Shown here piece after piece: positions 3,201-49,252 of a stretch of DNA of 53,970 bases. The DNA comes from an uncultured virus (IMG/VR IMGVR_UViG_3300032038_000026) (taxonomy: Duplodnaviria; Heunggongvirae; Uroviricota; Caudoviricetes). The stretch lies in the IMG/VR virus record IMGVR_UViG_3300032038_000026. One strand, written 5' to 3'. The notes beneath the pieces are model-generated. The model was not told the DNA's origin. It did no database searches and saw only the letters and a list, made by a program, of their open reading frames with translations. Position 1 is the stretch's first letter, and each line of letters opens with the position of its first letter. The position numbers were made by a program, and so were the translations under genes.

Positions 3201-4211
3201 ATGGATTTTTCAATTAATTATATATTTTGTTTTATAAGTTTACTATTATTTGTTGTTGGAATTATTTTTCTTATTAAAGGTTTTAAAGAAAGTAATCTTA
3301 CAATTTAGAAGGCCGCGGCTGAACATATAGAATATATAAAGTAGTTAACAAAAGAATAGGAAGAAGAATACAATCATCTACTTCATTGTCGAAGCGAATT
3401 AGAAGATGATATAGGTGAGTTAAAAAAATAGCGCGAGCTTGAGTAGGAACGCGCGCGGGAAGCAAAAGAAAATACAGATAGATTATTGAAGTCAGAAGAA
3501 GGGCGATTAAATGCTGAACTTCAACGTAAAAAAGAGTTTGAAGAAATTAAATTTGAATAGGAAAAAGAAAAAAGACAAGAAGCTATCAATCTTTATTTTA
3601 ATAGATTAAATGTATAGGCAGAAACTATCTATAAACAAAAGAAAGAAGAATTATAGACAGAAATTGCATTATTATAGTCTTAGTTTAATGATTTTAAAAT
3701 TCGTCAAGATTCAATAAATGAAGCTATACTTCGTGAAAAAGAATTGAAAGAAAAAGAAGATTTTTATTCTATTCAAGTATCTGAAAATGATAAAGAAGAT
3801 ATAAAAGTTTTGTAGTCAATGGATTTAAAACTCCATAATAGAGATGTAATTCCAAAACTAATTTGGGAATTATACATACGGCGGCCATGTCAAGAAATGA
3901 TTAAACGAATAACGGGTGGCCGAAAAGTTAGTGGCATTTATAAAATCACAAATAAAGAAACTGGTGAAGCCTATATCGGTAAAACCACTGATATATCTAC
4001 TCGTTGGCAAAATCATTGTAAGACTACAATTGGTCTTGAAGGTGCCGCGCGAGCAACATTACATAATCGCTTGGCGCAAGATGGGCTTTGGAATTATACT
4101 TTTGAAATAATAGAAGAAGTAGATAAAGAAAATTTATCTTCAAGAGAAGCATTTTATATAGACCTTTATGGGACAAAACAATAGTTAAATATGAAAGACG
4201 GGAGTAAATAA
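3201..4211 (+). CDS. Transmembrane plus coiled-coil protein with C-terminal GIY-YIG domain (many TAG)
   Basis: AAAGGAG SD; open from 3201 when TAG=Gln; SGIYKIT..YIGKT..RWQNH motif; TAA abuts the helicase ATG. Confidence 0.75.
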
Positions 4212-8529: not shown

Positions 8530-9372
8530 ATGATTAAAAATTGGTTAGTGCGTGGAGATACGCATGGAAATTTTGACTGGATGAATAATGGTTGTCTGAA
8601 TGATTATGTACCTAAAGAGACAGCAATTATAATTCTCGGCGATGCTGGATTTTTGTTCTGGTTAAATAAAAATGAACATCGTCATAATATTGAGATTAGT
8701 AATAAAGGTTATACTATTTATGCCCTACGTGGAAATCACGAAAGTCGAGTAACTAATTTGGATGGCTGGGAACTGGTATATGATTATAATGTAGAAAATA
8801 ATGTATATATATTTCCAGATATGCCTAATATTCGTTTTCTTTTAGATTATGGTGCATATAACTTCGGTGGCTATTATTGCTATGTAATTGGTGGTGCATA
8901 TTCTGTTGATAAGTGGTATCGTCTTGGGCGCTTAAATATGACACCAGAGACTAATATTCCTACTAAATCCGGTTGGTTTGCAGACGAGCAACTTACTGCA
9001 AAAGAAATGGAAGAAGCGGAAAATGAAATAAATTATATTAAATATAATGATGGTAAACAGTTTGATTTTATTCTTTCCCATACTTGTCCTTATTCTTTAC
9101 GGCCCATAGACATGTTCTTGTCTGGAATAGATCAATCAAAAGTAGATAATAGTATGGAATTTTGGATGGATAAAATTTATCAAAAAAATCGTGGTAAAAC
9201 TATTTGGCTTTGGGGGCATTATCATAACGATCGTGTTGAAGCGCCACGTTGTGAAATGTTTTTTAATGATATAGAGAAGCTTGATGATGTGGCCGCGCGC
9301 TGGAAGCGTTATGACGAAACGGGAGAACTCGATTGGTGGATAAAAAAGAGTCCTAATTTTGACTTTTCATAA
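8530..9372 (+). CDS. Calcineurin-like metallophosphoesterase
   Basis: GDTHG, LGDAG, LRGNHE, LSHTCP, WGHYH. Confidence 0.88.
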   Translation: MIKNWLVRGDTHGNFDWMNNGCLNDYVPKETAIIILGDAGFLFWLNKNEHRHNIEISNKGYTIYALRGNHESRVTNLDGWELVYDYNVENNVYIFPDMPNIRFLLDYGAYNFGGYYCYVIGGAYSVDKWYRLGRLNMTPETNIPTKSGWFADEQLTAKEMEEAENEINYIKYNDGKQFDFILSHTCPYSLRPIDMFLSGIDQSKVDNSMEFWMDKIYQKNRGKTIWLWGHYHNDRVEAPRCEMFFNDIEKLDDVAARWKRYDETGELDWWIKKSPNFDFS

Positions 9373-9418
9373 AATTTATTGTATAATATATATAGAAAGT
9401 TGAAAAGGAAATAACAAA

Positions 9419-9619
9419 ATGAGAGATAAGAAATATATTACACGAGTTCTAAATGAGCTTGGGCGTATGTGGGAATCATATCCAGATAAAAGCTTTGGGG
9501 AACTACTAACGGCTTTTGCGCCCAATCTGTTTTATGATGATGATGAACTTATTAGTATTATGAAAACAAATATTTATCTTAATCTTGTAAAGGAGTATAA
9601 AAATGGCGAAGCGAGATAA
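9419..9619 (+). CDS. Hypothetical protein
   Basis: ORF after a sigmaA-like promoter and SD. Confidence 0.6.
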   Translation: MRDKKYITRVLNELGRMWESYPDKSFGELLTAFAPNLFYDDDELISIMKTNIYLNLVKEYKNGEAR

Positions 9620-9760
9620 AAATCGTTCATATATGGAATGGGAATATGAGTGGCAAGAAAGCGCCCGTGAGGAAGAGGATCGCAAAAATCGTGAAAAGGA
9701 GCGGCGTGCGAAGAAACTCCAGAGTCATAAATATACTACTGACGATTGGGACGATGTTGA

Positions 9761-10042
9761 ATGAAACGAGTAACTCAAGATGATATAATTGCAATGAATG
9801 AAGCATATCTGGCCTGTGGCACATATAGTGGCGCGGCCAAGGCTACAGGCTGGAGTGCTTCTACTGTAAAGAAGTATATTATTGATGGCTATAAAAGTGA
9901 GCAAAAAGTTGAAGCCGTTGATATTGAACTTCCACCTATTGAAGAAATTGCAGATAGATTGCCGCCTTGGTATGATATTACTTGTTTGACTCCGGAAGAG
10001 GAAAAAGAAATTAAGCAACTTTGGGGAGAAATGCTTATATGA
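9761..10042 (+). CDS. Small HTH-like protein
   Basis: TYSGAAKATGWSASTVKKY helix-turn-helix pattern. Confidence 0.6.
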   Translation: MKRVTQDDIIAMNEAYLACGTYSGAAKATGWSASTVKKYIIDGYKSEQKVEAVDIELPPIEEIADRLPPWYDITCLTPEEEKEIKQLWGEMLI

Positions 10043-10353
10043 AGTCTTATTTTGTATTTCGTGAGAGCAGTAATAATGGATGGACGATTTGTCCTGTCCA
10101 TAAAGAATGGCTTGGCGCAGATATGGATAAGTCTATTAATGGAAGTTTTGCGCTTCTTGCATGTAGGGTCAGTGGACTTAGTTGGCTTCAGTGGTTAAGA
10201 TATTGTAGACAGAATGGGGCTACTCTATATGGCAAGGGGCATAAGTACCCTGTTGCTATTTGGAAAGAACCGAATAAAGAGTTTCTTAATAAACTTAACG
10301 CGCGAGCGAATGAACTTGCAAAAGTAATAAATTTTGAGGAGTTGCATCTTTAA
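10039..10353 (+). CDS. Hypothetical protein
   Basis: ATGA overlap with the previous stop. Confidence 0.6.
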   Translation: MKSYFVFRESSNNGWTICPVHKEWLGADMDKSINGSFALLACRVSGLSWLQWLRYCRQNGATLYGKGHKYPVAIWKEPNKEFLNKLNARANELAKVINFEELHL

Positions 10354-10495
10354 TGAGCAAAGAAATCTTTAAAAAGACTGGTGAAGAGCTTCAAGAATTT
10401 TTGGCTTTTCGTAAGCGTGGCTCACGAATAAAAAATAAGAAGGGTAAAGGGTCTTATAATAGGCAAGACTTTAAGAAAGTGAGGTGATGTGGTCC

Positions 10496-10961
10496 ATGAA
10501 AGTTATTTTCTTGGACGTTTAGCGTTGATGGAGTATTAAATTGCCGGCACACCCGTACAAGAACATCTGATGGCTGGTGCTTTGTAGATGATTATCTTGT
10601 TCGGCGACTCAGAGAATTGGTTGTACGTAGTGGCGCGCGAGTGGTGTTGAGTTCTACTTGGCGCGAAGGATGGAATCAAGAAGATGAAACTAAGAATGAT
10701 ATATCTTTTATTGAGCTTCGTAATAAGCTCAATGAATTTGGTATTGAAATTTTTGACCGCACTGGTGAACATCGAATTGATAGGTGGCGTGCGATTAAGG
10801 AATATATGGAGCGGCCGCGCGAAGACCCAATTGAGCATTATGTTATTATAGATGACTGGGATGATATGGGTGAATATATTAGTCATCTTGTGTGGACAAA
10901 TCCATCTACTGGTCTGACTGATGAAGATGTTGAAGAAGCTTTAAGAATTTTAGAGATTTAA
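10496..10961 (+). pseudogene. HAD-family phosphatase (Swiss Army Knife RNA-repair type) frameshifted by 7 extra nt
   Basis: MKVIFLDV in one frame and DGVLN..VVLSSTWR..YVIIDD..GLT in another; removing TAGCGTT at 10520-10526 restores FLDVDGVLN. Confidence 0.7.
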
Positions 10962-11154
10962 AATTTGATTTTTCTTTAAATTTATTATATAATATATATG
11001 TAAGATGAAGAAAGGAGATAAATCAAAATGTTCGATGATTTTGACACTCAGATTCAGGTTGAGGAAATTATTCCAGAAGAGTATGAGGATTGGCTTCGTT
11101 TCTGCGCGGGAGCGTATGAAGCAAGTGAAGAAGAAGGTAAAAGTGATATTTAAT

Positions 11155-11229
11155 GGTTCTGTAGTGCAGTTGGTCTAACACGTCGCCCTGTCACGGCGAA
11201 GAACACGGGTTCAAGTCCCGTCAGAGCCG
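11155..11229 (+). tRNA. tRNA-Asp(GTC)
   Basis: Cloverleaf, anticodon loop ctGTCac, GTTCAAG T loop. Confidence 0.92.
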
Positions 11230-11281
11230 CAGGCCCGCCGCGATAATGCGGGTAGCGCAAAAGATAGTCGTGCGCTTAAAA

Positions 11282-11545
11282 AGTTGAAATGCTTCGGTGG
11301 TGATTCTGTGCCGCCACCTTAACTGAGAGCACCGGCCATTAGCGTGTGGATATACGTACATATTGCCAATTCTATTCTTTGCCGAGAATAGTGAGGAAGC
11401 GGCAACTTCCAAAAAGCGAGCAACGGCTTACAGAGAGCGCTGGACTCCGCGCCCATCGAGGCGGGAAGTGCTGGTAGAGCAGGGGACACCAGACGCCAGA
11501 ACACAAGGGCATGTGGAATGGCAACATAGTTCCTGCATTTCGGTT
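11282..11545 (+). ncRNA. Unidentified structured RNA
   Basis: GC-rich spacer between tRNAs closed by agttgaaatgc/gcatttcggtt, with internal stems. Confidence 0.45.
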
Positions 11546-11554
11546 AATTTAATC

Positions 11555-11645
11555 GTCCCATAAGTCCGGAAAAACGTTCGCCGGCACCTGGAGATTGCGT
11601 CAAAAAGGTATAATGAATGAGTTGAGCGTCATTCATGGGACACCA
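11555..11645 (+). ncRNA. Aberrant tRNA-like element ending in CCA
   Basis: 7-bp acceptor gtcccat/atgggac plus ACCA; three internal hairpins with non-canonical loops. Confidence 0.55.
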
Positions 11646-11648
11646 TAT

Positions 11649-11725
11649 GGTGTCGTAGTGGAATTGGCGAACACGCTACCCCTTCAAGGTGGAGATTCCG
11701 GGTTCAATCCCCGGCGGCATCACCA
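11649..11725 (+). tRNA. tRNA-Glu(TTC)
   Basis: Cloverleaf, loop ctTTCaa, encoded CCA. Confidence 0.92.
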
Positions 11726-12002
11726 CTTTGTCCAAGCAAAGTAAAATATCTTGGTAGAGTGCGGAAAGGATGGATTTTTCGGTTAAACTACTACTGGCAT
11801 AGATTCCCGATGATAATTCCGATGTTCTATGATATGTAGCATAGTCATTTAGCAGCACTCTATAATAAAAAGACAACGAAAGCAAACCGAAAATTATTTC
11901 TTTGGAGGATTGATAGTTATGAAAGTATTAAAGAATCTCCAAAGCGAGGACATGCCAATTGGCTAATCCTCAACCTGGGTAAGTTGTAAAACTGCCCGAT
12001 AC

Positions 12003-12076
12003 TGCGGTGGTGGAGCAATGGTAGCTCACCAGTCTCATAAACTGGAGACGACGTTCAAATCGTCCGACCGCAACCA
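12003..12076 (+). tRNA. tRNA with CAT anticodon (Met, or Ile2 if modified)
   Basis: Loop ctCATaa, GTTCAAA T loop, CCA. Confidence 0.85.
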
Positions 12077-12199
12077 CGTATTTCGTCCTCCTTTCTTTAA
12101 AATTTAGACTCACTTAAGGGAACTATTTCACTAGTAGAGACTAAAATCTACTGGCGGTGGAAATAGCTGTGAGAATATACACTACCTATTATATAATTT

Positions 12200-12278
12200 G
12201 GGCCATGGGACTGCACAGAGTGGTCGCCTCCCTTGCAAGGAGGATATCAGCGGGGAGCGTTACCCCGATGGTCCACCA
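12200..12278 (+). tRNA. tRNA-Ala(TGC), atypical T loop
   Basis: G3:U70 pair, loop ctTGCaa, ACCA. Confidence 0.8.
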
Positions 12279-12397
12279 TCAAGCTGGCCAGTGTGGCGCT
12301 GCAGAAAGCTTGTAAAACACGGGGCTGCCGCATGCCCTCCTCAAGGTATATTTTAGCGGTGCTGGGCATCACCTAAAACTGCCCAATGCCCTCCTAT

Positions 12398-12474
12398 GGT
12401 CTCTTCTTCTAAATGGATAGGAAACTAGCCTCTCAAGCTGGTAATCGTGAGTTCAAATCTCCGAGAGATCACCA
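12398..12474 (+). tRNA. tRNA-Glu(CTC)
   Basis: Stem ctagc/gctgg, loop ctCTCaa, ACCA. Confidence 0.85.
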
Positions 12475-12476
12475 TA

Positions 12477-12568
12477 AAGATATATACAGCAAATTTTAAA
12501 AGTGTTTTGGTTACACAACTTGTCTGAATAACAGGTCGAAGCGGTTCGAATCCGTATTTATGTATCTT
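12477..12568 (+). ncRNA. ACAGCAA stem RNA copy 1 (D, anticodon GAA and T arms, no acceptor stem)
   Basis: aagatata/tgtatctt stem, TACAGCAAA, gtgt/acac arm, acttgt-ctGAAta-acaggt, gcgg-TTCGAAT-ccgt. Confidence 0.7.
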
Positions 12569-12574
12569 GTATAT

Positions 12575-13116
12575 GCGAGGTTAGCGCAGCTGGTGAACGC
12601 ACATGCTTTACTCGACAAATTCTCAAATTAAAAAAAAATATATGAACACGAAAGAAATTGGAAATCTTACAGAATTACAATGTATTACAGGCTTATATAA
12701 AATAGGATGTGATGTAAGTATTCCATTTGGAAATAGTCAAAAATATGATTTAATTATTGATTATAAAAATACATTGTATAAAATTCAAGTAAAACATGCT
12801 AACGATCATAATGGAGAATATTTTACATTTAAAACTCGTTGGCAAGGACATAATATGTCTGGGTATACTCAAAATAGATACACAAAAGACGATATTGATT
12901 TTTTCGCTACTTACTATAATGGAGATGTATATTTAATTCCTGTTGAAGAGTGTAGTGGATCAGATAAAACAATTCGTATAGCTCCTCCTAAAAAAAATCA
13001 AATTAAAGGTATTAATTTTGCTGAAAATTATTTAGCAGAGGAGGTTTTAAAAAAATTATGAGAACATTGTTAAGTAAAGCATGGGACTCCGAGTTCAAGT
13101 CTCGGGCTTCGCACCA
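12575..13116 (+). tRNA. tRNA-Val(TAC) interrupted by a 465-nt insertion (about 12612-13076)
   Basis: 5' half 12575-12611 and 3' half 13077-13116 join to catgc-ttTACaa-gcatg with normal acceptor, T arm and ACCA; exact junction inferred. Confidence 0.8.
12642..13061 (+). CDS. PD-(D/E)XK endonuclease of the intron-associated type, inside tRNA-Val
   Basis: IGNLTE..VSIPFG..YDLIID..KIQVK..YTKDDIDFF..YLIPVE. Confidence 0.8.
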   Translation: MNTKEIGNLTELQCITGLYKIGCDVSIPFGNSQKYDLIIDYKNTLYKIQVKHANDHNGEYFTFKTRWQGHNMSGYTQNRYTKDDIDFFATYYNGDVYLIPVEECSGSDKTIRIAPPKKNQIKGINFAENYLAEEVLKKL

Positions 13117-13262
13117 ATTAGCGAATGGTCAACGCTAATGGATAAGTCCTCTTTTCAAGGGATAACACTCTCTAATGAGAGTGTTATTTTTTTTATTAAA
13201 CTTGATTTTTTTATAAATTTAGAGTATAATATATATGTAAGATAAAGAAAGGGGTAAATAAA

Positions 13263-13577
13263 ATGAAGCTTTGGGTAGATGATGTGCGCCAGCCGCCCTC
13301 TGATGATTGGCTTTGGGCTAAGACTGTATATGAAGCAATTACTGCCATTAGAATGTATGAGCATCAGTGGTTTGATGATACTATTACTATTTCGCTCGAT
13401 CATGACGCTGGTGATTACGCTAAAAACGGCGGTGATTATATTAAAATTCTGAACTGGCTTGAGCGCGAAGGCATTGTTGATACCGGTTACTTCTTTCATA
13501 TTCATTCTATGAATCCCGTTGGTGTTCAGAATATGCGTGCAATTATTGAGCATAATAGATGGAGGGAAATCAGATGA
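13263..13577 (+). CDS. Cyclic-phosphate-processing receiver-domain protein
   Basis: LWVDDVR, ISLDHDAG, IHSMNPVG motifs. Confidence 0.8.
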   Translation: MKLWVDDVRQPPSDDWLWAKTVYEAITAIRMYEHQWFDDTITISLDHDAGDYAKNGGDYIKILNWLEREGIVDTGYFFHIHSMNPVGVQNMRAIIEHNRWREIR

Positions 13578-13765
13578 TTGAACCTTGGATTGCTATGGGC
13601 CATCTTATTGAAATGAATTATGGACAAAAAGTTCATTGGCGAGATGGATATTTTTATTGTCCTAAATGTGGTAGAGCAATTTATCAGATTAGTTGGAATA
13701 AAATGGATTTGATGAATGGGGATAATGGGTTTATATGTCCATTTTGTGAAAATATTATTAATTAA
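13574..13765 (+). CDS. Small zinc-ribbon protein
   Basis: CPKC and CPFC. Confidence 0.6.
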   Translation: MIEPWIAMGHLIEMNYGQKVHWRDGYFYCPKCGRAIYQISWNKMDLMNGDNGFICPFCENIIN

Positions 13766-13779
13766 AAAGGGTGATATAA

Positions 13780-14148
13780 ATGTCCAGAAGTTATAAAAAA
13801 CATCCATATTATACTGATGGCCGGCGGCGCACAACCAAAGAGATAAAGCAAATTGCGAATCGTTGTGTGCGGCGGCGCAATAAACGCATAATTTCTGGGT
13901 ATTTATATCGGGAGTCTAATTATCGAGATATACTTTGTCTTGATGGAATGTCATATAAGAGATTTTATAACTCATATGATATTCATGATTGGGTTAGCAG
14001 ATGGACTAAAGCCCAAGCAATCCATCAATGGGAGCATCCTCATTGGCATTATTTTGAGCGTACTGATACGTGGTGGCATATTTGGGAAGAATACAAGACA
14101 AGAGAAGAAATGGAACAGTATTGGGCGAAGTATTATAGGAGAAAATAA
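13780..14148 (+). CDS. Basic hypothetical protein
   Basis: SD, MSRSYKKHP start, tight packing. Confidence 0.7.
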   Translation: MSRSYKKHPYYTDGRRRTTKEIKQIANRCVRRRNKRIISGYLYRESNYRDILCLDGMSYKRFYNSYDIHDWVSRWTKAQAIHQWEHPHWHYFERTDTWWHIWEEYKTREEMEQYWAKYYRRK

Positions 14149-14298
14149 AAATGAAGTTTTTGTTATATATTAGTTTATTGCTTAGCCTATTTTTAATTGT
14201 GATGGGTACTGTTTTAGCAATATATAATCATTCTATTTTTGCAATTTATGTTGTTTTTGGTTTAATACTTTTTATTTTTATATTAATGGTGATTATAA

Positions 14299-14859
14299 AT
14301 GATTGAAGGGCTTTATAAATGTTTTGAACATTGGCATAGAGAGGGTACGGTTTGGCTTTATAGTGACACCCATTTTAACGAAGATAGTGATATCCGTGTG
14401 GCATTTCCAAATCGCCCTTCTGCCGAGGAACAAATCAAACTAATTAACTCTAAGGTTGGCCGCAAAGATCACCTAATTCTTCTTGGCGACGTTGGCGATA
14501 TTGAATGCGCGCGGAAGCTTAGGGGGCATAAAATTCTTATTAAAGGGAACCATGATGGTGGTTTGTCAAATTATGAGGATGTCTTTGAGGAAGTTTATGG
14601 CGGTCCGCTCATGATTGGAGAAAGAATAATTTTGTCTCATGAGCCTCTTGCTATTAGTTGGGCTTTTAATATTCATGGCCATACACATTTGAGTTCGTTT
14701 GACCGTCCTGGCCATATGTGTGTATGTAGTGATGTAATTAATTATACGCCCGTGAACTTTAATCAGTTTGTTAAAAGCGGCCGCCTCAAAGAGGTTACGC
14801 CGCTGCATCGTTCTACGATTGATAAAGCAACTCAAAGAAAAAATTTGAAAAATAAGTAA
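14299..14859 (+). CDS. Metallophosphoesterase
   Basis: SDTHF, LGDVG, KGNHD, LSHEP, IHGHTH. Confidence 0.88.
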   Translation: MIEGLYKCFEHWHREGTVWLYSDTHFNEDSDIRVAFPNRPSAEEQIKLINSKVGRKDHLILLGDVGDIECARKLRGHKILIKGNHDGGLSNYEDVFEEVYGGPLMIGERIILSHEPLAISWAFNIHGHTHLSSFDRPGHMCVCSDVINYTPVNFNQFVKSGRLKEVTPLHRSTIDKATQRKNLKNK

Positions 14860-14975
14860 TTTTATAGTATAATATATATAGAAAGAAAGAACGCGAACTT
14901 GCGTAAAATATTATTTTAATGTACTCTTATCTTAAATATTCTACTTTATTATAGAAGGTAATAGGAGGAATAGAT

Positions 14976-15731
14976 ATGGGTAAAGCATTAAATTTAGTTG
15001 GATAGCGATTTACTCGTTTAGTGGTTTTAGAATATGCAGAAGAAGATAAATAGAAATATTATAATGGAAAACATAAAGTTACTTGGAAATGTAAATGTGA
15101 TTGCGGTAATATTTGCTATGTTACTACTGAAAATTTAAGACGTGGAGATACTCCATCTTGTGGTTGTATAACAAAAGAAAATCGTCGAAAACAATTAAAA
15201 GATTTAACAGGCCAAAGATTCGGTCATTTAGAAGTGATTAAGTATCTTGGCACGGTAAATAGAAATTCAAAATATTGGGTACGATGTGATTGTGGGAAGG
15301 AATATGAAATTTATGCTTCAAATCTTACTCAAGGATGTACAACAAGCTGTGGTTGTACTAAAGAATCTCATGGTGAATAGAAAATACGAGAAATACTAAT
15401 TAAAAATAATATTAATTTTATTAGTTAGAAAACTTTTAATAATTTTTATTATCCAGATACACATGGTAAACCAAGGTTTGATTTTTTCTTACCAGATTAT
15501 AATATTTTAATTGAATACGATGGAGAGCAGCATTTTAAACCAGTTTTTAATTGGGATACGGATGAAAAATATAAACAAAGACTATTACATGATAAAATTA
15601 AAAATGAATATGCTTGGGATAATAATTTTATAATCATTCGTATTCCATATATTCATTATAATAATTTGACTCTTGATGATTTATTATTAAATAGTAATTT
15701 TATAAGAAAGGATGATAGAAATGCTGGATAA
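14976..15731 (+). CDS. Free-standing homing-type endonuclease (CxCDCG/SCGC repeats plus DUF559-like domain), absent from the ORF track because of TAGs
   Basis: AGGAGG SD; NLVG(TAG)RF repeat matches DLTG(CAA)RF; RFDFFLP..LIEYDGEQHF..IIRIPY. Confidence 0.82.
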
Positions 15732-16968
15732 AAATGGAATTCGTCAGTTAGCCTACGTCGTGATTGTAGATGGAATTGAAGAGCTTCCTGGGTATGACCG
15801 TGTTGAAAGTGCGTGCATCGGCGGATGGCGTTGTATTGTCCCTAAGGGGCAGTTTCATGTGGGTAGTCCTGGTATTTACTTTGAGATTGATAGTCGTGTA
15901 CCTTCTGATAATCCTGCTTTTGCTTTTCTTGAGAAGCGAAATTATAAGATTAAGACTCAGAAGATGTGTAAAAGCATTTCTCAGGGACTTCTTATGCATG
16001 CGGATGATTTTGGATGGAAAATTATCTTTGATGGAACTAAAACTCCTTATGTTTATGATGGAGAGAAAGTTCATTATGCAGATGATGAAACTCGTTTTCT
16101 TACCAAAATTCTTGGTGTAACTTATGCTGACGATGAAGATAATGCTCGTAAAGCTCCTTCTGCTGATAAGTATAAGAAAATGGCTCAGCGGCATCCTAAT
16201 ATCTTTAAGAAGCCTTGGGCGCGCTGGATGATGAAGCGCGAATGGGGTCGTAAGCTTATGTTTATGTTCTTCGGCAAGAAGAAAGACAAGAAGAATGGCT
16301 GGCCGGCTTGGGTTTCAAAAACTGATGAAGAGCGTATTCAGAATATGCCTTGGATTCTTAACGATACTGGTAGCTGGGTTATTACTGAAAAAATTGATGG
16401 TTCTAGCACTACTTTTACTATGAAGCGCGGTAAACGTGGTAAGAAGGAATTCTATGTTTGTTCTCGAAATATATGTTTTGATAGTGTAGATAAACCTTGC
16501 TATTATGATACCAATATTTATTGGGAAATGGCGCAGAAGTATGATATGTACAATGTACTTTCTAAGTTTCTTGATGAACATCCTTCGACTGAATGGGTAA
16601 CTATTCAGGGCGAGACTTTCGGTAATGGAGTTCAGAAGAGAGATTATTCTATGAGTGGGCATGATTTCCGTGCATTTAACCTTATTACTTCTGATAAAGG
16701 CCGTTATGGGACTTTAGAGATGGACGCTATTCTTTATAAATATGGAGTACTTTGTGTGCCTATTATTCATAAAGATTTCCATTTTGATTTTCTTGATAAG
16801 GTAAAACTTGAAGGTGAAAATAATAGAGTAGATACCCTTCTTAATATGGCTACTGGTAAATCAGAAATTGATATGCTCCCTCGTGAAGGATATGTTCTTC
16901 GTTCTGCTGATGGTACTAAATCCTTTAAGGCAGTAAGCAATAGTTTTCTTCTTAAATATCATGGATAA
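15721..16968 (+). CDS. ATP-dependent RNA ligase (Rnl2/DRB0094-like) with N-terminal extra domain
   Basis: KTDEERIQN, TEKIDGSS (I), QGE (III), FRAFNL (IIIa), REGYV (IV), SFKAVS (V). Confidence 0.88.
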   Translation: MLDKNGIRQLAYVVIVDGIEELPGYDRVESACIGGWRCIVPKGQFHVGSPGIYFEIDSRVPSDNPAFAFLEKRNYKIKTQKMCKSISQGLLMHADDFGWKIIFDGTKTPYVYDGEKVHYADDETRFLTKILGVTYADDEDNARKAPSADKYKKMAQRHPNIFKKPWARWMMKREWGRKLMFMFFGKKKDKKNGWPAWVSKTDEERIQNMPWILNDTGSWVITEKIDGSSTTFTMKRGKRGKKEFYVCSRNICFDSVDKPCYYDTNIYWEMAQKYDMYNVLSKFLDEHPSTEWVTIQGETFGNGVQKRDYSMSGHDFRAFNLITSDKGRYGTLEMDAILYKYGVLCVPIIHKDFHFDFLDKVKLEGENNRVDTLLNMATGKSEIDMLPREGYVLRSADGTKSFKAVSNSFLLKYHG

Positions 16969-16978
16969 GGAGTAAGTT

Positions 16979-17245
16979 ATGACTGATAAAGAAGAATATA
17001 AAAAGACTTTAGCTTTATACCTTCAAACTTGCCAGGAAGAGTATAGGTCTACGCATAAAAACTGTATAACATGCGAACTCTGTAAAGATAGAGAGTATAC
17101 TTGGCCAACATGTAAAGTCACTGGGAAAGAAATAGGTGATTTTAATTGGATTCGTGCAATTAGAGCTGCTATGTGTAAATATTATACTCCACATATAGAT
17201 GAGACAAAACAAGAAGAAAAGTATTGGGTTTATGAAAGAAGATAA
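16979..17245 (+). CDS. Cys-rich hypothetical protein
   Basis: AAGGAG SD, CITCELC. Confidence 0.6.
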   Translation: MTDKEEYKKTLALYLQTCQEEYRSTHKNCITCELCKDREYTWPTCKVTGKEIGDFNWIRAIRAAMCKYYTPHIDETKQEEKYWVYERR

Positions 17246-17330
17246 ATATTAATACACGATAGAGAAAAGTATTTTGACTTTTCTCTATTTTTATGTTATA
17301 ATATATATAGAAAATGAAAGGAGTAATAAA

Positions 17331-17678
17331 ATGTTTGATAAACGCATTATCTGGTATGCAGAACAAATCTATGATACAAAAATTTCTATTGCATACTCAA
17401 AAGATAAAACAGTAATGTTTATTAAAACTCCTGAAAACTATTTTAAAATTTATTTACTGGATTTTGAGCGGTTCGGATATTATAGTGTGATGCATGAAAA
17501 TCGTTATGGTGAAAAAGGTTGGCACAAACAATTGCGGGCGCGCAGTCTAAATTATGCAATTTATATGTGTTGTGTGCATGACTTTAATAAAGAAAACAGT
17601 ATTTGGTCTTATAATTTTGATTATAAGCGATTTATGGACGATGCGTATAAAGCATATAATTGGGAGGAGAAGAAATGA
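17331..17678 (+). CDS. Hypothetical protein
   Basis: Promoter and AAAGGAG SD before ATG 17331. Confidence 0.65.
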   Translation: MFDKRIIWYAEQIYDTKISIAYSKDKTVMFIKTPENYFKIYLLDFERFGYYSVMHENRYGEKGWHKQLRARSLNYAIYMCCVHDFNKENSIWSYNFDYKRFMDDAYKAYNWEEKK

Positions 17679-17899
17679 CCGTTTACGAAAAGATTGATCG
17701 CGTACTTAAACAGCACGAAAATCATAAGTATTGTGAGCGCTCTTTGGGTTCGATTGCAGATTATATAAACTGGGCATGGAAATGGAAGAAGATTAGTAGA
17801 GAAGAAATGGAGAGTGCGGCCGATCGAGTTTGTAGATTGTTTGACGCTGAGTTGGAGAAAACTATAGATAGGAGTTATGACCATGTTCGAGACATTTGA
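17675..17899 (+). CDS. Hypothetical protein
   Basis: GGAGG SD, ATGA overlap. Confidence 0.6.
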   Translation: MTVYEKIDRVLKQHENHKYCERSLGSIADYINWAWKWKKISREEMESAADRVCRLFDAELEKTIDRSYDHVRDI

Positions 17900-18030
17900 A
17901 GAATTTAAGCAATGGTTAGACGCCATTCCAGATGAAGAGAAAGAGCCATTTTGTCCTTTTGAGTGTGGATATTGTGATGTAGCATACAGTGGTGAATGCT
18001 TTAAATGTCAGGGAAAGGATTTAAGATTTG

Positions 18031-18513
18031 ATGAATAAAACTCTGTGGTTGATGTGTGGCGCGCCTGGTTCAGGGAAAACGTGGTTTGCAAAAAATAAGT
18101 TGATGAAAGGTTATGGCTGGGACTATATTTCTCGTGATGAAGTGCGCTTTTCTATGATTAAAGATGGAGAAGAATATTTTAGTCATGAAACCGCTGTTTT
18201 TAATGAGTTTGTTGAGAAAATTGCGATTGCACTTGATTGGGGTCATGATAACGTAATTGCTGATGCGACACATTTAAATTGGGGTTCTCGTCGTAAGCTC
18301 TTGAAGGCTCTTAGTAAGAATTGTGTGCTGGAAGATGTAGATGTAATTCCTGTAGTTATAGATGTAAAACTGGAAGATATTCTCGAACGTAATAAACTTC
18401 GTGATGACCGCGCGCGAGTGCCAGAAGAGACAATTCGTAGAATGTACAGTAGTATAAGTGACCCAGCGAAAGACCCATATAAGTATACTGCTATTATGAG
18501 GGTGAGGAATTAA
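18031..18513 (+). CDS. Polynucleotide-kinase-like P-loop kinase
   Basis: CGAPGSGKT, ISRDEVR, IADATHL..R, ERNKLR..VPEETIRRM. Confidence 0.85.
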   Translation: MNKTLWLMCGAPGSGKTWFAKNKLMKGYGWDYISRDEVRFSMIKDGEEYFSHETAVFNEFVEKIAIALDWGHDNVIADATHLNWGSRRKLLKALSKNCVLEDVDVIPVVIDVKLEDILERNKLRDDRARVPEETIRRMYSSISDPAKDPYKYTAIMRVRN

Positions 18514-18514
18514 A

Positions 18515-19084
18515 ATGATATATCTAACATCAGACCTCCATTTTAATCATGACAGGGAGTTCATCTATAAGCCGCGCGGTTTTAACTCGGTTGAAGAAAT
18601 GAATAATAAAATAATTGCCAATTTTAATGAGATTGTGACTCCTGATGATGATGTATATGTTCTTGGAGATCTTATGCTCGGCGGCCCTGATAAGCTTGAT
18701 GAAGGACTTAATTCAATTAGTGAATTAAATGGTAAGCTTCATCTTGTGCGAGGGAATCATGATACTGATAAACGCTGGGAAGCATATAAAGGACTTCATA
18801 ATGTTGTAGAAGTAGATAATGCAATTTATCTAAAATATAATGGTTTTCATTTTTATATGTCTCATTTTCCTACTATTACTAGTAATAATGATTATGATAA
18901 GCCTTTAAATGCGCGTCTTTTGAATTTGTGCGGGCATAGTCATTGTAAAAATAAGTATGCTGATATGGATAAGGGATATATTTATCATGTAGAATTAGAT
19001 TGTCAAGACAATATGCCCGTAGAAATTAATCAAATAATTAGAGATTTTAAGAGTTTTATTTACTTACCATTAGAAGAAAAATGA
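18515..19084 (+). CDS. Metallophosphoesterase
   Basis: TSDLHFNH, LGDL, RGNHD, SHFP, CGHSH. Confidence 0.88.
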   Translation: MIYLTSDLHFNHDREFIYKPRGFNSVEEMNNKIIANFNEIVTPDDDVYVLGDLMLGGPDKLDEGLNSISELNGKLHLVRGNHDTDKRWEAYKGLHNVVEVDNAIYLKYNGFHFYMSHFPTITSNNDYDKPLNARLLNLCGHSHCKNKYADMDKGYIYHVELDCQDNMPVEINQIIRDFKSFIYLPLEEK

Positions 19085-19110
19085 AATTACTTCTATGGAG
19101 GTATATAAAA

Positions 19111-19902
19111 ATGAATAAAATAGATATGACTGGATGGAAGATGTCTGAGCATGGTGTGCCAGATAGTAAATTGACAGTTTTATATGAGGTAGAGCCGCAT
19201 ATAACTTCTGGCGGTAATAGACAAGTACAATATTTATGTCGCTGTGAATGTGGAAAAGAAATTAAAGTTCTTGGCGCGCGTTTAAGAAATGGAAATACGA
19301 AATCATGTGGCTGTATTCATTCTAATCAATTAATAAATAGAAATATTTAGCATGGCCGCTAGATAAAAATAAATGATTGTTTTGGAAAATTAACAGTAAT
19401 AGCCGATTTAGGTATGAGAAAATAGAAATCTCGTAATAAAAATTGGCGTTGGTCATTATGTTAGTGTGATTGCGGGAGCGAACCTATAGAAGTTCCTAAT
19501 AATTTATTAATTAATGGGCACAAAACTTCTTGCGGATGTATAGGATCTATTGGTGAATTAAAAATTGAATAGCTTTTAAAAGAAAATCATTTACAATATA
19601 TAAAAGAATATAAATTTAATGATTTATATAATAGTAAAACACATTATTAGTATCGTTTTGATTTTGCGGTATTTCAAAATGATGAAATAATTTTTTTAAT
19701 TGAATTTGATGGTAGATAGCATTTTACTGGACCAGAATCAACTTGGAAAAATACTCGCTCATTAGAACAAATTAAATGGGCAGATCAAGAAAAAAATAAT
19801 TATTGTAAAGAACACAATTTAATTTTAAAACGTATACCATATTTTAATTTGAATCAAATTACTATAGATAATATTTTGTCTAATAAATGGGATATAATAT
19901 AA
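19111..19902 (+). CDS. Free-standing endonuclease, paralog of 14976 (several TAG)
   Basis: CRCECG/SCGC repeats, YRFDFAVF..LIEFDGR(TAG)HF where the paralog has GEQHF, LKRIPY. Confidence 0.8.
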
Positions 19903-20389: not shown

Positions 20390-21307
20390 ATGATGTTTGG
20401 AATTATATTTAGAATTGCTCTCGGTATAGGTAGTTCATACATTGGATGGAAGCTAGGTAAGGAAGTAGCTAAATGGCTTACAAAAAAGCATAATAAAAAG
20501 ATATGGGATGCGAAAAGAGCAAAACTTCTCGATAGGTCAATACGAATACAGGGTAATTATACTGATGTAAAGAAAGTACCTCAAGTTTCTTTTGAAAGAT
20601 TCCTAAAACTTTATGAAGTAAGTCCTGAAAATTGGCTAATTACTGAAGAGGATACTCACGGTTATGATGATTATTTTCCTGTTTATGTAAAATATGATAC
20701 TCAAATTCCTCTTTTTTGGGAAACTGGTGAAGATTTTCAAAAATATAGAGAATGGGTAGAAGAAAAATTCTCCAAAGGCGAGGCCGTACTATATCAACAG
20801 GTGCGCGATGAAAGCATGAAACTTCTTACGAAGTTCATTAAAGAAGATCTTGAAAAGAAACGTAAGCATGCGGAAGAAGAGATAGCAGAACTGGAAGCAC
20901 AGGTTAAGAAAGAATGCGAGCAGACTAAAGAAAGGCAGAAAGAAATTCAACTTACTTTAGAGCCGCAGACTTCAGCTTCGGCTTGGTCAGATACTCCCGA
21001 AGAAGCGATGAAAAAAATAAGAAAATTAGAAATAAATTCTTCTGGAGATGTTGTCATAGAAGAAGAAGTAAAACCTTCTAAAGAGACATCTGTTTCTTAG
21101 AGCGCGGTTGAGCTTTTATCTACTTGTATCCAACCAAATCAATTAGATTATATGCACATATGTAGTGTAAGGGATGAACTTAATCGAATACAAGCTATGA
21201 ATATGCAAGCAGCGCAGGATTATTGGCTCAGTCAATGCCAAAATTCTATTATGAGTCAAGTTCAATATAATAATATTATGCAATCTATTCATCCATTTCA
21301 TTTTTAA
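20390..21307 (+). CDS. Membrane-anchored coiled-coil protein (TAG readthrough at 21098)
   Basis: Frame stays open about 68 codons past the TAG to a TAA just before the next promoter. Confidence 0.65.
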
Positions 21308-21361
21308 AATATTATAGATAAGAAATTTGATTTTTCTTAAAATCTATAGTATAATATATAT

Positions 21362-22090
21362 AGAAAATGAGAAAGAAAACAATATAGTTGGCCACTAGTG
21401 GAAACTTTCTCTTTCATGCGTCCGCACTATCAAGTTCAAATCGACGATAAAAACCAGGAACTTGTGACTTTCGAGATGGTTGTATAGCCCTCATTGGTTT
21501 CAAAAGGCAAACCAAAGATGCCCTATATTGTTGTCGTTTAGGCGTGGTTAGTCCCTACATTAAAAGGAGGAAAACCAGCAACTTTGCAAAGCGGTTTCGC
21601 TTAACCGCCCTGCGGGGAAATAAGCAATTTATTGGTGTAGGATTTATAGACCTACGGTCGGCCAAGAGACGATAAACCCTGGAGAGTTGCCACCTCTCTA
21701 AAAGTTTGGACATGGTGGAAATCCTTATATCTGTGCTGGTAAGCCATGGAGACATCCTAAAGAGTCCCGTTCTTAGACCGGCTACAAGGTCTTTGTCGAA
21801 ATATAGAATAAGATGTAGTTAAAGAGGAGTTTGCGTGAGACGTGAGGGGATGCCCGAAGTAGACGAAACGCAGAGGGTTAGTGGCCTCCAAAGAAGTTGA
21901 CGGACCAAGACTTCTATTTTAAGTAAAGTTGATTGATTGTTTGGGTAACGTACTGAAGAGCGGCGAGAAATCGACAATGTATAGGGGACGTTACTGTTGG
22001 TGAAACCCCAACTCATTATAAGACCTGCTCCAAGGAATGTCTTATAAGTAGCGGTCGTTGATGCCGGTAGATTAAGGGCGGACGTGGGAA
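21362..22090 (+). ncRNA. Large highly structured RNA (about 730 nt), GOLLD/ROOL-like in size and context
   Basis: Own promoter, no credible ORF, long-range pairings tgcgtccgc/gcggacgtg, ccctata..ttgtcg/cgacaa..tataggg, ggccactag/ttagtggcc. Confidence 0.65.
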
Positions 22091-22111
22091 CTACGACAGT
22101 GCCATTTCATA

Positions 22112-22274
22112 AAGACAGTCTAACAGCAAACTTTTTTGCAGGTTTTACCTGCGCTTGATATTAAAAGTAACAAGATGATGACAGAGGTATATTTGTCGTT
22201 CCAAAAATGGTTGAGTTTATTAATTCTAATTTGTAAGACCAGCCGGTAGGTGGATTAAAAGGAATGACTGTCTT
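22112..22274 (+). ncRNA. ACAGCAA stem RNA copy 2
   Basis: aagacagtc/gactgtctt 9-bp stem followed by TAACAGCAAA. Confidence 0.65.
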
Positions 22275-24081: not shown

Positions 24082-24699
24082 ATGGCATACATTTATTGTA
24101 TTACTAATGATATAAATAATAAGTAGTATATAGGGAAAACAGAAAAAAGTATTGAAGAGCGTTTTAGAGAACATTGTTCTGATTCTTAGAGACCTCGATG
24201 CGAAAAACGTCCGTTATATGATGCTATGAATAAATACGGAATAGAGCATTTTCATATTAGCCAAATAGAAGAAACAAACGATCCAGATGAAAGAGAAAAA
24301 TATTGGATAGAATATTATGGAACTTTTAAGAATGGATATAATGCTACTATTGGTGGAGATGGAAAGAGATATTTAGATTATGATTTAATTATTGCTTTAT
24401 ATAAAGAATTACATAATACCATTTTAGTTGCAAATTATATTGGTTGTTGCCCTGACTCAGTTAGAAATGTTTTAAGAAATAATAATATAGATATAATTTC
24501 ATTTTAGGAAGTAATTCGTAAAAAATCTAGTAAGATAGTTAAACAATATACAAAAGACACTCATGAACTTGTTAATATATTTCCAAGTATGACAGAAGCT
24601 AGCAATTCATTAAACATTCAAGATGCAAGAAGGCATATAAGTGAATGTTGTAATGGTAAGCGTAAATCTGCATACGGTTATTGTTGGGAATTTGCGTAA
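24082..24699 (+). CDS. GIY-YIG homing endonuclease with C-terminal NUMOD1-like domain (4 TAG)
   Basis: MAYIYCITNDINNK(TAG)YIGKT..; C-terminal FPSMTEA..ISECCNGKRKSAYGYCW. Confidence 0.85.
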
Positions 24700-27231: not shown

Positions 27232-27380
27232 AGGGCCGTAGTGTAATGGTAACACACCGGACTTGGGGCGATGGTGTAAAGAGCACGCAAGGAAAGCAAG
27301 GGCCTTGAAGCATTAGGGCGGTACTAAAGCGCTCCACCATGACTCCGTCGTTGAAGGTTCGAATCCTTCCGGCCCTGCCA
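27232..27380 (+). tRNA. tRNA-Gln(TTG) interrupted by a 75-nt tRNA-like insert (27265-27339)
   Basis: Removing the insert gives cgga-ctTTGac-tccg, the usual Firmicutes tRNA-Gln arm; acceptor agggccg/cggccct, GCCA. Confidence 0.78.
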
Positions 27381-32657: not shown

Positions 32658-32732
32658 TGCGGATTGGTGCAGAAGTCAACACGCCGGTCTCTAAAACCGG
32701 AGAACAGGGGGCGGTACCCTGATCCGCTGCCA
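32658..32732 (+). tRNA. Amber suppressor tRNA (CTA), probably Gln-charged
   Basis: ccggt-ctCTAaa-accgg; unpaired U1:U72, G73, CCA. Confidence 0.9.
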
Positions 32733-45815: not shown

Positions 45816-47546
45816 ATGTCTCGTTCATACTATGATTGGATGCGGGCGAAACGCAACTTTTTCTCTTCCCAAGCCACTCGCATTACATCTATTCCAAAAC
45901 CAGACGACGCAGTCGTATACGAACGCGAATCAACTAATCCATATTGGCAACGATATCGCGAATCCTATCTAGATCGAATTCCGACTGCCCTAAACCTAAA
46001 TTTCCCCGCCGAGCGCATACAACAATTCATAACCCAAGCCGCGCAATTCGAATATAATAAAGAAGAAGAATTTTTATCAAAGTTTTATAAATCCAATAAC
46101 ACAAATGAATCCCATATAGAAAAATTCAACAATTTATTCTAGTCACGCGAGATGTACACCAAATTTAATGACCGAATACAAAATATTTTAAATAATAAAT
46201 AGTATTAGAAGAATAAAGATTAGAGCGCGAACGAATACTATACCGGTATGGCGCCAAACCTAAGCTCAGTTTTTATTACATACTTTGACAAACATTTTCA
46301 AACTCAATTATATGAGTTTTATAAAAACTTTAGTGTTGAGACACCTGATACAAAATTATTAGACGACTTTGATAATATTATACGTAAAGCTATTTTAGAA
46401 GCCTCGCGCGAAATGGCGCAAATTTCACTTGAAAGAGCAAATGAATACGGTTCAGGTGATGAGTGGGCGCCAATCTACGATATGCTACAAAATAATGATC
46501 GTTCAATGGAATTATTTTTAAATACTTTAAAAGAAGCAATAGGCCCAACAAATTTTAATGATTTATTAGAAGAATTAAAGTCGTAGAAACATACAGCGAA
46601 ACGAGTTTCAAAAAAACGTATTTCAGATGCAACTTTTTAGAAGCTTGCAAATATAAAAGGTCGTAAAGCTTCAATTGGCGGTTCTATATTAGAGCCAGTT
46701 ATTGCAATGATGGCGAATTATTTTAATGGAAGTAATAGTAATGGAGATTCAAAGTTAAGTTATAAAATGTTGGCTGAAAATTTTGGCGGCAATAAAGTTA
46801 TGAGTGACGTGGTTTAGATGTGGACTACAAATGTAGATGTAGACTTATAGCCTTTAATAGATGAGCTGCGCGAAGCCATGAATGCGGCAGATAGCGCGCA
46901 TATTCGCGAAGTTTATAAAAAGATTAGTGATTATTATCTATGGAATGATTTAGAAGGTAAATTAGATGACCTTTATACTGTATTTGTAAACGCTAAGAAC
47001 TATGGCATTGGCGCAAATGGACGTGATTATACAAAATCTTACAAAGGCTAGCTTGAAGAATTACCTTCTTTTTTATAGGCTAACGGAATTGAAGTAGGTC
47101 GCGCTAGTGATTTTTTAGCTTTTGCTTATAATACTGGTGAAGGTGCAGTACGGGCGGGTTATCGTTAGGATTTCATGGAAGAATGCAGTAATGCACTTAA
47201 AGCTATGGCAGCGAATATAATGTTTGATGATTATGAGTCTGTTGGACATGGGGGTACTACTCAAATTCACATGTATTATTTAAGTGGTAAATATATACCA
47301 GCATCAGTTGTATTTTAGTCTATGGCTGACTCTATGAATGATGCAAAAGCTACAATAACATTACCGCCAGCAATTAAAGATGATGGGCCAGGATGGGGTG
47401 ATATAAAACGAACTTCAACCAATGATGCAGATTTTAAAGAAAAACTTTGGGAACACTGGAGGCAAGAATATAACGATGCTAAAGTTGCATCTACATGGAG
47501 CGTTTCATTTACTTTAAGAATTAAGAAATTAGTTGGATTAATATAA
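45816..47546 (+). CDS. 576-aa hypothetical protein with 12 in-frame TAG
   Basis: Supplied ORFs 45816, 46248 and 47322 share one frame with only TAG between them; AGGAGG SD. Confidence 0.8.
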
Positions 47547-47661
47547 AATTTGACATTTCTCCCAACCTATGCTATAATATATTTGTAAGGGGGAAAAACT
47601 AAGGAGTGGCGCCCGTATTACCTAACCCCTGGCACTATCGTACGCGCGCCGTCAACGTAAA

Positions 47662-49005: not shown

Positions 49006-49252
49006 GATGGAACCAGTTGAATTTCTTGGTTTGGCTAGGCTTTTAGGTGTACAAGTCTTAGAAGAAAATAAAGAAGCAACTGAAGATAAAGATAAATTTA
49101 AACCACGTAGTTTTGCGGACGTATTAGAAGATGTATTGGCAAAATATGAAAAACAAAATCGTAGCCGCAAACGCGAAATTATTAAGTTAGTAAAAAAATC
49201 TAATGCTGTGCGTAGAGGTGACCCTGATGCCAGTAATGCCGCAGATTCCTAA
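48968..49252 (+). CDS. Hypothetical protein
   Basis: AAGGAG SD, one TAG upstream of the 49007 ORF. Confidence 0.6.

What the first reader, a model, noticed from the sequence alone, without database searches (positions are those of the whole stretch)
12575..13116. tRNA-Val interrupted by an endonuclease ORF with no ribozyme core
Seen: the 465-nt insert is almost all ORF (30 nt before the ATG, 15 nt after the stop), leaving no room outside the ORF for group I P3-P9. The flanks extend the anticodon stem (catgctttac/gtaaagcatg, acaa/ttgt, ttctca/tgagaa) and can alternatively form a 4-bp helix between two 4-nt bulges, loosely like an archaeal bulge-helix-bulge. Known: this nuclease type is usually found in group I introns. 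Inference: a protein-spliced homing intron in a bacteriophage.
Basis: partly seen in the sequence, partly recalled or inferred. Interest (0 to 1): 0.8.

Follow-up and report, generated by a model that had tools for sequence, protein, structure and literature searches.

The report
Ribozyme-free nuclease intron in phage tRNA
A phage valine-tRNA gene is split right after its anticodon by a compact gene for a DNA-cutting enzyme whose two ends fold back onto the anticodon and bring a ribosome-binding signal from the gene's tail round to its start, which points to a kind of protein-spliced tRNA intron not found in the papers searched, although splicing itself has not been shown.

Summary
A 465-nt insert (12612-13076) splits tRNA-Val(UAC) at 36/37 and is almost wholly an I-Ssp6803I-type (PF11645) nuclease ORF, with no group I core. 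The bulge-helix-bulge reading fails.

The insert belongs to a family: 135 split tRNA loci including the window, with 15 anticodons. The last three insert bases pair with the anticodon in 67 of 71 distinct junctions, half with G·U at position 35. Cultured Enterococcus phage EFP01 carries one; relatives with the empty allele fix the site exactly.

Not in the scan notes I retrieved: the nuclease's Shine-Dalgarno lies at the 3' end of the insert in 95 of 113 distinct inserts, before the ATG in 5, and at both in none. The terminal helix brings it about 15 unpaired nt from the AUG.

Intact same-anticodon spares occur in 4 of 18 complete carriers (about 12 expected).

Best reading (about 0.6): a protein-cut, ligase-sealed homing intron, translated from the circular or pseudo-circular intron. 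Against: no spliced RNA was seen, and the helix survives where the tRNA is dead. The scan noted this family before on other DNA (e1-7841939).

The parts
12575..12611 (+). tRNA-Val 5' exon, positions 1-36; anticodon TAC at 12609-12611
   Evidence: site fixed by family analysis and the EFP01 filled/empty alignment
12612..13076 (+). 465-nt insert (putative intron) at tRNA position 36/37, no target duplication, 26% GC
12612..12629 (+). 5' arm of the terminal helix: 7-nt proximal segment, single A of the A/CA internal loop (12619), distal segment
   Evidence: pair probabilities; covariation over 71 junctions
12642..13061 (+). 139-aa PD-(D/E)XK nuclease (PF11645), I-Ssp6803I fold, E11/D36/Q49/K51 invariant; no SD before its ATG
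13039..13045 (+). strong Shine-Dalgarno-like motif (AGGAGGT) inside the end of the ORF, upstream of the 3' helix arm
   Evidence: function inferred
13053..13076 (+). 3' arm of the terminal helix, holding the stop codon, the CA of the internal loop and the terminal GTA (13074-13076) that pairs with the anticodon
13077..13116 (+). tRNA-Val 3' exon, positions 37-76 with encoded CCA
15712..16968 (+). phage ATP-dependent RNA ligase, DRB0094/Rnl5-like; candidate sealing enzyme (link inferred)
   Evidence: PF09414 + PF21189; TIGR02306 below its cut-off
18028..19084 (+). adjacent kinase-like and metallophosphoesterase genes; candidate end-healing enzymes (link inferred)

Best explanation
A mobile tRNA intron that is removed by protein enzymes, not by a ribozyme or EndA. 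(1) Shown: it sits exactly at 36/37 and encodes an intact I-Ssp6803I-like nuclease. (2) Inferred from I-Ssp6803I: the nuclease cuts intron-less alleles in the anticodon arm and the element homes. (3) Shown by covariation: in RNA, anticodon bases 34-36 pair with the insert's last three bases and extend the anticodon stem by about 10 bp, an A/YA loop and a distal helix. (4) Inferred: a nuclease makes a 3-nt staggered cut in this duplex (36|i1 and n|37), and an RNA ligase joins the exons and circularises the intron. Given splicing, my odds for the cutter are: the intron's own protein about 40%, a host double-strand RNase plus trimming about 40%, an unseen phage enzyme about 20%. (5) Strongly suggested: the nuclease is translated with an SD at the insert's 3' end that the terminal helix brings to the AUG, in the excised circle or in the helix-closed precursor.
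For: Anticodon pairs 3/3 in 67 of 71 distinct junctions across 15 anticodons. On the 46-junction subset, slid controls gave 0-2 of 46 and shuffles 2.0 vs 12.6 of 13 classes. Pairing is strictest at the junction (mismatches 1, 2, 1, 4 of 71 at 34-36 and i1) and looser further out (5-23 of 71). G·U at 35 in 34 of 71 points to RNA rather than DNA palindrome repair. The tree needs at least 17 anticodon changes (quick tree). EFP01's exons are identical to the empty alleles. An intact same-anticodon tRNA is present in 4 of 18 complete carriers against 11.8 expected. Four of 6 lineages with decayed exons have an intact duplicate next door. All 21 loci found by the DNA junction motif alone carry a full nuclease ORF. 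The SD is at the 3' end in 95 of 113, at the 5' end in 5, at both in 0. 25 of 27 near-complete carriers have some RNA-ligase hit. The same phages carry other anticodon-loop inserts.
Against: No spliced or circular RNA was seen (the runs laid did not cover the junction). The helix, A/CA loop and 3' SD persist in L181/L182 and L049, where the tRNA is dead, and L098 keeps a different helix plus SD, so the helix is selected for nuclease expression whether or not tRNA is made. The lack of spares is also what a tRNA-killing insertion would leave, and intact exons could reflect recent homing. The decay/spare link is weak (Fisher p 0.13). No shared trans-acting nuclease was found between EFP01 and the other 17 genomes. 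Ligase types differ (Rnl2/5-like, Rnl1, RtcB) and need different end chemistry; 14 of the 36 records with a PF09414 hit are below cut-off and may be DNA ligases; G009 and G048 have none. A bridged spacer of about 15 nt is longer than a canonical one. I know of no RNA cleavage by this nuclease family.
Confidence: 0.6

Rival explanations
1. A selfish homing-nuclease gene that kills the tRNA. It is never spliced. The terminal helix, extended into the anticodon arm for stability, only builds a long-range ribosome-binding site (3' SD bridged to the AUG), perhaps inside a stable tRNA-shaped scaffold.
For: Helix and SD survive without a tRNA (L181/182, L049, L098). Geometry alone lets the SD work in the unspliced precursor. 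Distant homologs are free-standing beside intact tRNAs. Earlier scan notes e1-5753657 and e1-5747833 reached this reading for related loci (unchecked here).
Against: It does not explain why pairing is strictest exactly at 34-36/i1 rather than near the SD/AUG end, nor the fixed 7-bp distance to the A/YA loop (40 of 71). It also leaves open why exons are intact in 127 of the 158 viral and metagenome loci kept, with only 11 decayed, mostly beside an intact duplicate.
Confidence: 0.23
2. The insert is cut out, and probably circularised, for the nuclease's own expression, but the exons are rarely rejoined. The tRNA is then effectively lost and phages re-acquire intact copies.
For: In tRNA-less L181/L182 the bases equivalent to 36 and n-2 have changed together and still pair. 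Anticodon-arm-only elements keep the junction (L049, L200, L234). Two near-complete carriers have no ligase hit.
Against: Exons score as well as neighbouring tRNAs (116 of 117 called by ARAGORN; biased by my selection), and 14 of 18 carriers have no spare.
Confidence: 0.11
3. RNA-catalysed removal: a hidden or trans-acting group I core, or an unknown small ribozyme overlapping the ORF.
For: A relative (L097, 35% identity) lies in a group I-like intron in tRNA-Asn, and I-Ssp6803I is group I-encoded (PMC1995217, passages).
Against: The median leader is 27 nt and the median trailer 13 nt. U36 plus terminal G is found in 1 of 71 junctions. No Rfam signal in the window or at gathering level in L053, L060, L167.
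Confidence: 0.04
4. An archaeal-type BHB intron cut by an EndA-like enzyme.
For: A 4-bp helix between two 4-nt bulges can be drawn here and in 17 of 71 junctions.
Against: It costs about 15 kcal/mol. The canonical register is found in 0 of 71. PF01974 is found in 0 of 50 carrier records while the four archaeal controls ring.
Confidence: 0.02

Closest known systems
I-Ssp6803I and the group I intron of Synechocystis tRNA-fMet (PDB 2OST; PMC3384342 and PMC1995217, passages)
   Same: Same nuclease family and fold (phmmer E 3e-7; Foldseek E 4e-10, TM 0.74); tRNA anticodon-loop host site.
   Different: No ribozyme. The site is 36/37 in 15 anticodons of phage tRNAs. The terminal helix pairs with the anticodon, and the SD is at the 3' end of the ORF.
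Archaeal BHB introns carrying homing endonucleases (PMC4496867, passages)
   Same: Works like them under the best reading: an ORF-only intron closed by an exon-intron helix, cut and ligated by proteins.
   Different: No BHB and no EndA. PD-(D/E)XK rather than LAGLIDADG. Found in bacteriophages. No ORF-less hairpin version was found, whereas archaea have many.
Lak megaphage tRNA introns (PMC6784885, passages and Table S6 part 4)
   Same: Unexplained non-Rfam inserts in phage tRNA anticodon loops.
   Different: The Lak inserts listed in the part read are about 80-115 nt, ORF-less, and one is tRNA-like. They resemble this window's tRNA-Gln insert, not the nuclease element.
Free-standing homing endonucleases in phage tRNA clusters (PF11645 homologs in My1, SM5, SelmaRatti, Sf-FR1, HSTV-4)
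   Same: Same family, tRNA-cluster location, and a likely end state of this element (L181/182, L200, L234).
   Different: They lie beside intact tRNA genes instead of inside one.
Hairpin-bridged ribosome-binding sites, T4 genes 25 and 38 (recalled, from no call)
   Same: A helix shortens the distance from a remote SD to the AUG.
   Different: Here the SD lies about 400 nt downstream of the AUG in the linear gene and becomes upstream only across the intron's terminal helix or in a circle.

Membership tests
PF11645 / I-Ssp6803I-type nuclease | Profile match above cut-off, and PD-(D/E)XK fold with catalytic E/D/Q/K | tested here: met
   99 bits vs cut-off 26; E11, D36, Q49, K51 invariant in 17 sequences; best fold match 2OST
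PF11645 / I-Ssp6803I-type nuclease | Cleaves the intron-less tRNA gene as a tetramer | not testable with these tools
   needs a DNA cleavage assay
Group I intron | P3-P9 catalytic core | tested here: not met
   no RF00028 match at E<=10, positive control L097 E 0.0032; 45 nt outside the ORF
Group I intron | U before the 5' splice site and terminal omega-G | tested here: not met
   window has C36 and terminal A; both features in 1 of 71 junctions
Archaeal/eukaryal BHB tRNA intron | 3-nt bulge, 4-bp helix, 3-nt bulge at the splice sites | tested here: not met
   0 of 71; 4-4-4 alternative about 15 kcal/mol above the best fold
Archaeal/eukaryal BHB tRNA intron | EndA/TSEN splicing endonuclease available | tested here: not met
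   PF01974 in 0 of 50 carrier records and not among the 40 window ORFs scanned; host genomes not examined
Intron (general) | Precise insertion whose removal restores the host gene | tested here: met
   EFP01 vs two empty alleles; 116 of 117 distinct exon pairs called as tRNA, all with the expected anticodon
Intron (general) | Removed at the RNA level | tested here: inconclusive
   contigs only, junction not covered
Mobile (homing) element | Patchy presence among close relatives, and the same element in different alleles | tested here: met
   2 of 35 matching Enterococcus phage records (both EFP01) cover the insert; near-identical nucleases in different exons, L035 vs L037
Transposon / IS element | Target-site duplication and a transposase | tested here: not met
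   no duplication; the only ORF is PF11645

The most novel reading that the evidence does not exclude
A self-contained protein-spliced mobile tRNA intron. The encoded homing endonuclease cuts both the DNA of empty alleles and its own RNA duplex with the same 3-nt stagger around the anticodon; that DNA cut geometry for I-Ssp6803I (3' overhangs flanking the anticodon) is recalled and could not be confirmed in held papers. A phage ligase seals tRNA and intron. The nuclease is then made from the circular intron through an SD that the linear gene carries at its tail, tying homing to successful splicing.
Probability: 0.25. Interest if true: 0.92.

Novelty: categorically new. Interest (0 to 1): 0.8.

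Why it matters
Bacterial tRNA introns described in the papers read are self-splicing group I. A 2014 review says phage group I introns were seen only in protein genes (PMC3984707, passage), and Lak phage tRNA introns remain unexplained (PMC6784885).

A family at a fixed site, adapted to 15 anticodons through anticodon pairing, would be a new splicing route. It would also offer a natural case of prokaryotic translation from a circular or helix-closed RNA. Even if it is never spliced, the tail-to-head Shine-Dalgarno is an unusual, testable expression mechanism. Annotation pipelines miss these tRNAs: the EFP01 record lists only a hypothetical protein there. A cultured carrier and many empty-allele relatives exist, so the question can be tested directly.

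Tried and rejected
- RNA evidence: 16 runs held small shares of the stretch. Four were laid as contigs. No joint across 12611/13077 appears in the listed rows (45 rows not shown), and one 151-nt RNA-run contig covers part of the ORF. Uninformative either way.
- Empty allele of this exact Val gene: a 19-nt 5'-exon pattern found only the filled copy in viral contigs. The window has no intact tRNA-Val but is a genome fragment.
- Other splice positions: 35/36 or 34/35 give stop or wrong-body anticodons in most isotypes; ARAGORN's automatic calls of that kind were rejected. 37/38 fails because base i1 is rarely A.
- ORF-less versions: none among all loci held (six chance hits) or among 21 motif hits. 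The apparently broken ORFs in L100 and L214 carry TGA at Trp-like positions, consistent with another code.
- A shared trans-acting phage nuclease: BLASTP of EFP01 and window proteins against 18 genomes found only the element itself in all 18; remote homologs would be missed.
- RNase III 2-nt geometry does not give a 7-nt loop without trimming (reasoning).
- I-Ssp6803I cut geometry was not found in the passages read; the two primary papers are not held.
- The 53 distant genome-contig homologs (L113-L165, 36% identity or less) gave no ARAGORN intron call where a match was located and were not studied further.
- The careful tree did not finish; the quick tree was used.
- No complex prediction or large protein search was run.

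Full report
**Observation.** The window is a tRNA-rich phage segment. Removing 12612-13076 restores tRNA-Val(TAC), 12575-13116. The insert holds a 139-aa ORF, 12642-13061, with 30 nt before and 15 nt after. It is PF11645, matches I-Ssp6803I by sequence and by predicted fold (pLDDT 91; Foldseek E 4e-10), and keeps E11, D36, Q49 and K51. Rfam finds no group I core. The BHB-like alternative costs about 15 kcal/mol.

**Family.** Searches with an alignment gave 78 viral loci (best 80 of 121 kept), 80 metagenome loci (best 80 of 411) and 61 genome-contig loci. The sets overlap.
- Both tRNA halves flank the ORF at 36/37 in 56 of 78 viral loci, 71 of 80 metagenome loci and 7 of the top 8 genome loci. 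Nine of these were placed by hand. Two more metagenome loci look intact but were not counted.
- The other viral loci are 4 decayed, 1 group I-like (L097) and 17 free-standing or in other contexts, by eye. Seven metagenome loci are decayed.
- With the window this makes 135 split loci, 15 anticodons and 71 distinct junctions. The window's Val group (16 proteins) is one clade in a quick tree of 115 proteins that needs at least 17 anticodon changes (20 short or duplicate rows were left out).

**Insertion site.** Cultured Enterococcus phage EFP01 has the element in tRNA-Asn. Against the empty alleles of EfV12-phi1 and phiSHEF16 the exons are identical and the boundaries fall exactly at 36/37 with no duplication. 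This is read from the sequences; the aligner misplaced the gap.

**Junction helix.** Bases 34-36 pair with the last three insert bases in 67 of 71 junctions.
- Per position (Watson-Crick / G·U / mismatch): 34:n 60/10/1; 35:n-1 35/34/2; 36:n-2 70/0/1; i1:n-3 65/2/4. Further out there are 5-23 mismatches.
- An A/YA internal loop follows 7 bp after the splice site in 40 of 71, then a distal helix of 3-16 bp.
- On the first 46 junctions, slid partners gave 0-2 of 46, and shuffling among 13 anticodon classes gave 2.0 against 12.6.
- Neither a canonical BHB (0 of 71) nor group I splice-site bases (1 of 71) fit.
- Removal at 36/37 needs two cuts staggered by 3 nt around the paired anticodon. I recall that I-Ssp6803I cuts DNA with 3-nt 3' overhangs flanking the anticodon; this comes from no call.

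**Translation signal.** The window's ATG has no SD, while many neighbouring genes do, and AGGAGGT lies at 13039-13045.
- Among 113 distinct inserts, a strong SD (-6 kcal/mol or lower) lies in the last 60 nt in 95, before the ATG in 5, at both in 0 and at neither in 13. The background is 13% of 819 ORF-body windows.
- Glu is GAG in 143 of 281 tail codons against 127 of 1005 body codons.
- The five 5'-SD cases lie on four separate branches.
- In 82 inserts the raw SD-to-AUG path across the helix has medians of 47, 60 and 66 nt in the Thr, Val and Asn groups, while the unpaired spacer is 15, 14 and 16 nt; in the window it is 21.
- Caveats: relatives are not independent, some automatic start picks were off, and 15 nt is long for a spacer.
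- The arrangement works in an excised circle, but also in the unspliced precursor, so it does not prove splicing.

**Is the tRNA made?** For:
- An intact same-anticodon gene occurs in 4 of 18 complete carriers against 11.8 expected from the non-carriers (P about 1e-4, genomes not independent).
- Spliced exons score as well as neighbours (116 of 117 at the default threshold; 90 of 117 vs 587 of 1081 at 115%; biased by my selection).
- Four of 6 decayed lineages sit beside an intact duplicate.
- All 21 loci found by DNA motif alone keep a full ORF.
- 25 of 27 near-complete carriers have an RNA-ligase hit (PF09414 in 36 of 50 records, 22 over cut-off; RtcB 3; Rnl1 10), and the window has one 2.6 kb away.

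Against:
- No junction read was seen (one search was uninformative).
- The helix and SD persist where the tRNA is dead (L181/182, L049).
- No EndA (0 of 50) and no shared phage nuclease were found.
- Ligase chemistries differ; EFP01 shows only RtcB.

**Mechanism.** Best reading (0.6): a homing intron cut by a protein at the anticodon duplex and sealed by an RNA ligase, with the nuclease translated through the helix-bridged SD. Position, helix, SD placement and mobility pattern are shown. DNA cleavage, RNA cleavage, ligation and circularisation are inferred. Rivals: never spliced (0.23), excised but rarely rejoined (0.11), ribozyme (0.04), BHB (0.02).

**Literature.** Ten searches listed no paper whose title or abstract describes this element; the library lacks most subscription papers.
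- Read as passages only: PMC3943268, PMC3239194, PMC3017599, PMC1995217, PMC3384342, PMC3984707, PMC4496867, PMC4238349, PMC8651126.
- PMC6784885: passages, plus supplement 3 part 4 of 8.
- PMC7162821: term search only, no 'intron' in the main text; its supplements were not read and may bear on phage tRNA introns.
- The scan's own notes recorded the family on other DNA (e1-7841939) and a dead-gene reading for other loci. A word search for the SD feature found no note.

**Verdict.** Real, conserved and outside the tested intron classes; splicing is unproven but directly testable in a cultured phage.

Noticed in passing
window 27232-27380: tRNA-Gln(UUG) carries a 75-nt tRNA-shaped insert (27265-27339) at 34/35 that starts like a tRNA 5' end and ends in ACCA; removal gives a tRNA-Gln call. 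Similar nested inserts occur in L028, L030, L039 (two), L042, L051, L080, L083, L086, L095, L102 and others. It resembles the Lak tRNA-in-tRNA intron, and could be removed by RNase P plus 3' processing and ligation (inference).
   Followed up: partly
window 32658-32732 and 45816-53520: A CUA-anticodon tRNA, and late genes that join into 447-599-aa frames when TAG is read through, suggest TAG-to-Gln recoding (table 15). Many relatives look the same; L100 and L214 look like TGA=Trp.
   Followed up: partly
window 21300-22200: A long non-coding stretch with the deepest RNA-run contig cover outside tRNAs in two runs and no Rfam match at E<=1; possibly an undescribed large phage RNA. ROOL and GOLLD occur in L053, L060 and L088.
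   Followed up: partly
window 11246-11553 and 11735-11950: Intergenic stretches between tRNAs are covered by RNA-run contigs from three studies, with no Rfam family.
   Followed up: no
window 8530-19084: RNA repair cluster: HAD_SAK_2 (10617), cREC_REC (13263), three metallophosphoesterases, a kinase (18028) and an RNA ligase (15712); DUF2828/DUF7788 at 28252.
   Followed up: partly
window 12200-12278, 12398-12474, 12493-12564: Low-scoring or atypical tRNA-like genes (Ala, Glu and a 'Phe' call) just upstream of the split tRNA-Val.
   Followed up: no
L181 1864-2530, L182, L200, L234, L041: Apparent transition from intron-embedded to free-standing: an intact same-anticodon tRNA sits beside the element, whose own exons have decayed while the helix persists.
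   Followed up: partly
L060, L063, L066, L071, L072, L074: Long inserts (770-850 nt) whose nucleases carry a C-terminal Cys-rich and helix-turn-helix-like extension (read by eye); their 3' SD is weak or replaced by a 5' SD.
   Followed up: no
L255, L319, L332, L384: Four of 18 complete carriers hold a second element of this family at another tRNA gene; IMG/VR record 3300024270_001991 also holds two (L404, L417).
   Followed up: partly
L097 690-1330: A family member inside a group I-like intron in tRNA-Asn with an ordinary 5' SD: a possible link between the group I and ribozyme-free forms.
   Followed up: partly
window 14919-15731, 19081-19902, 24082-24699, 3201-4211: Further nuclease-like ORFs (one GIY-YIG hit) that become continuous with TAG read-through.
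   Followed up: no
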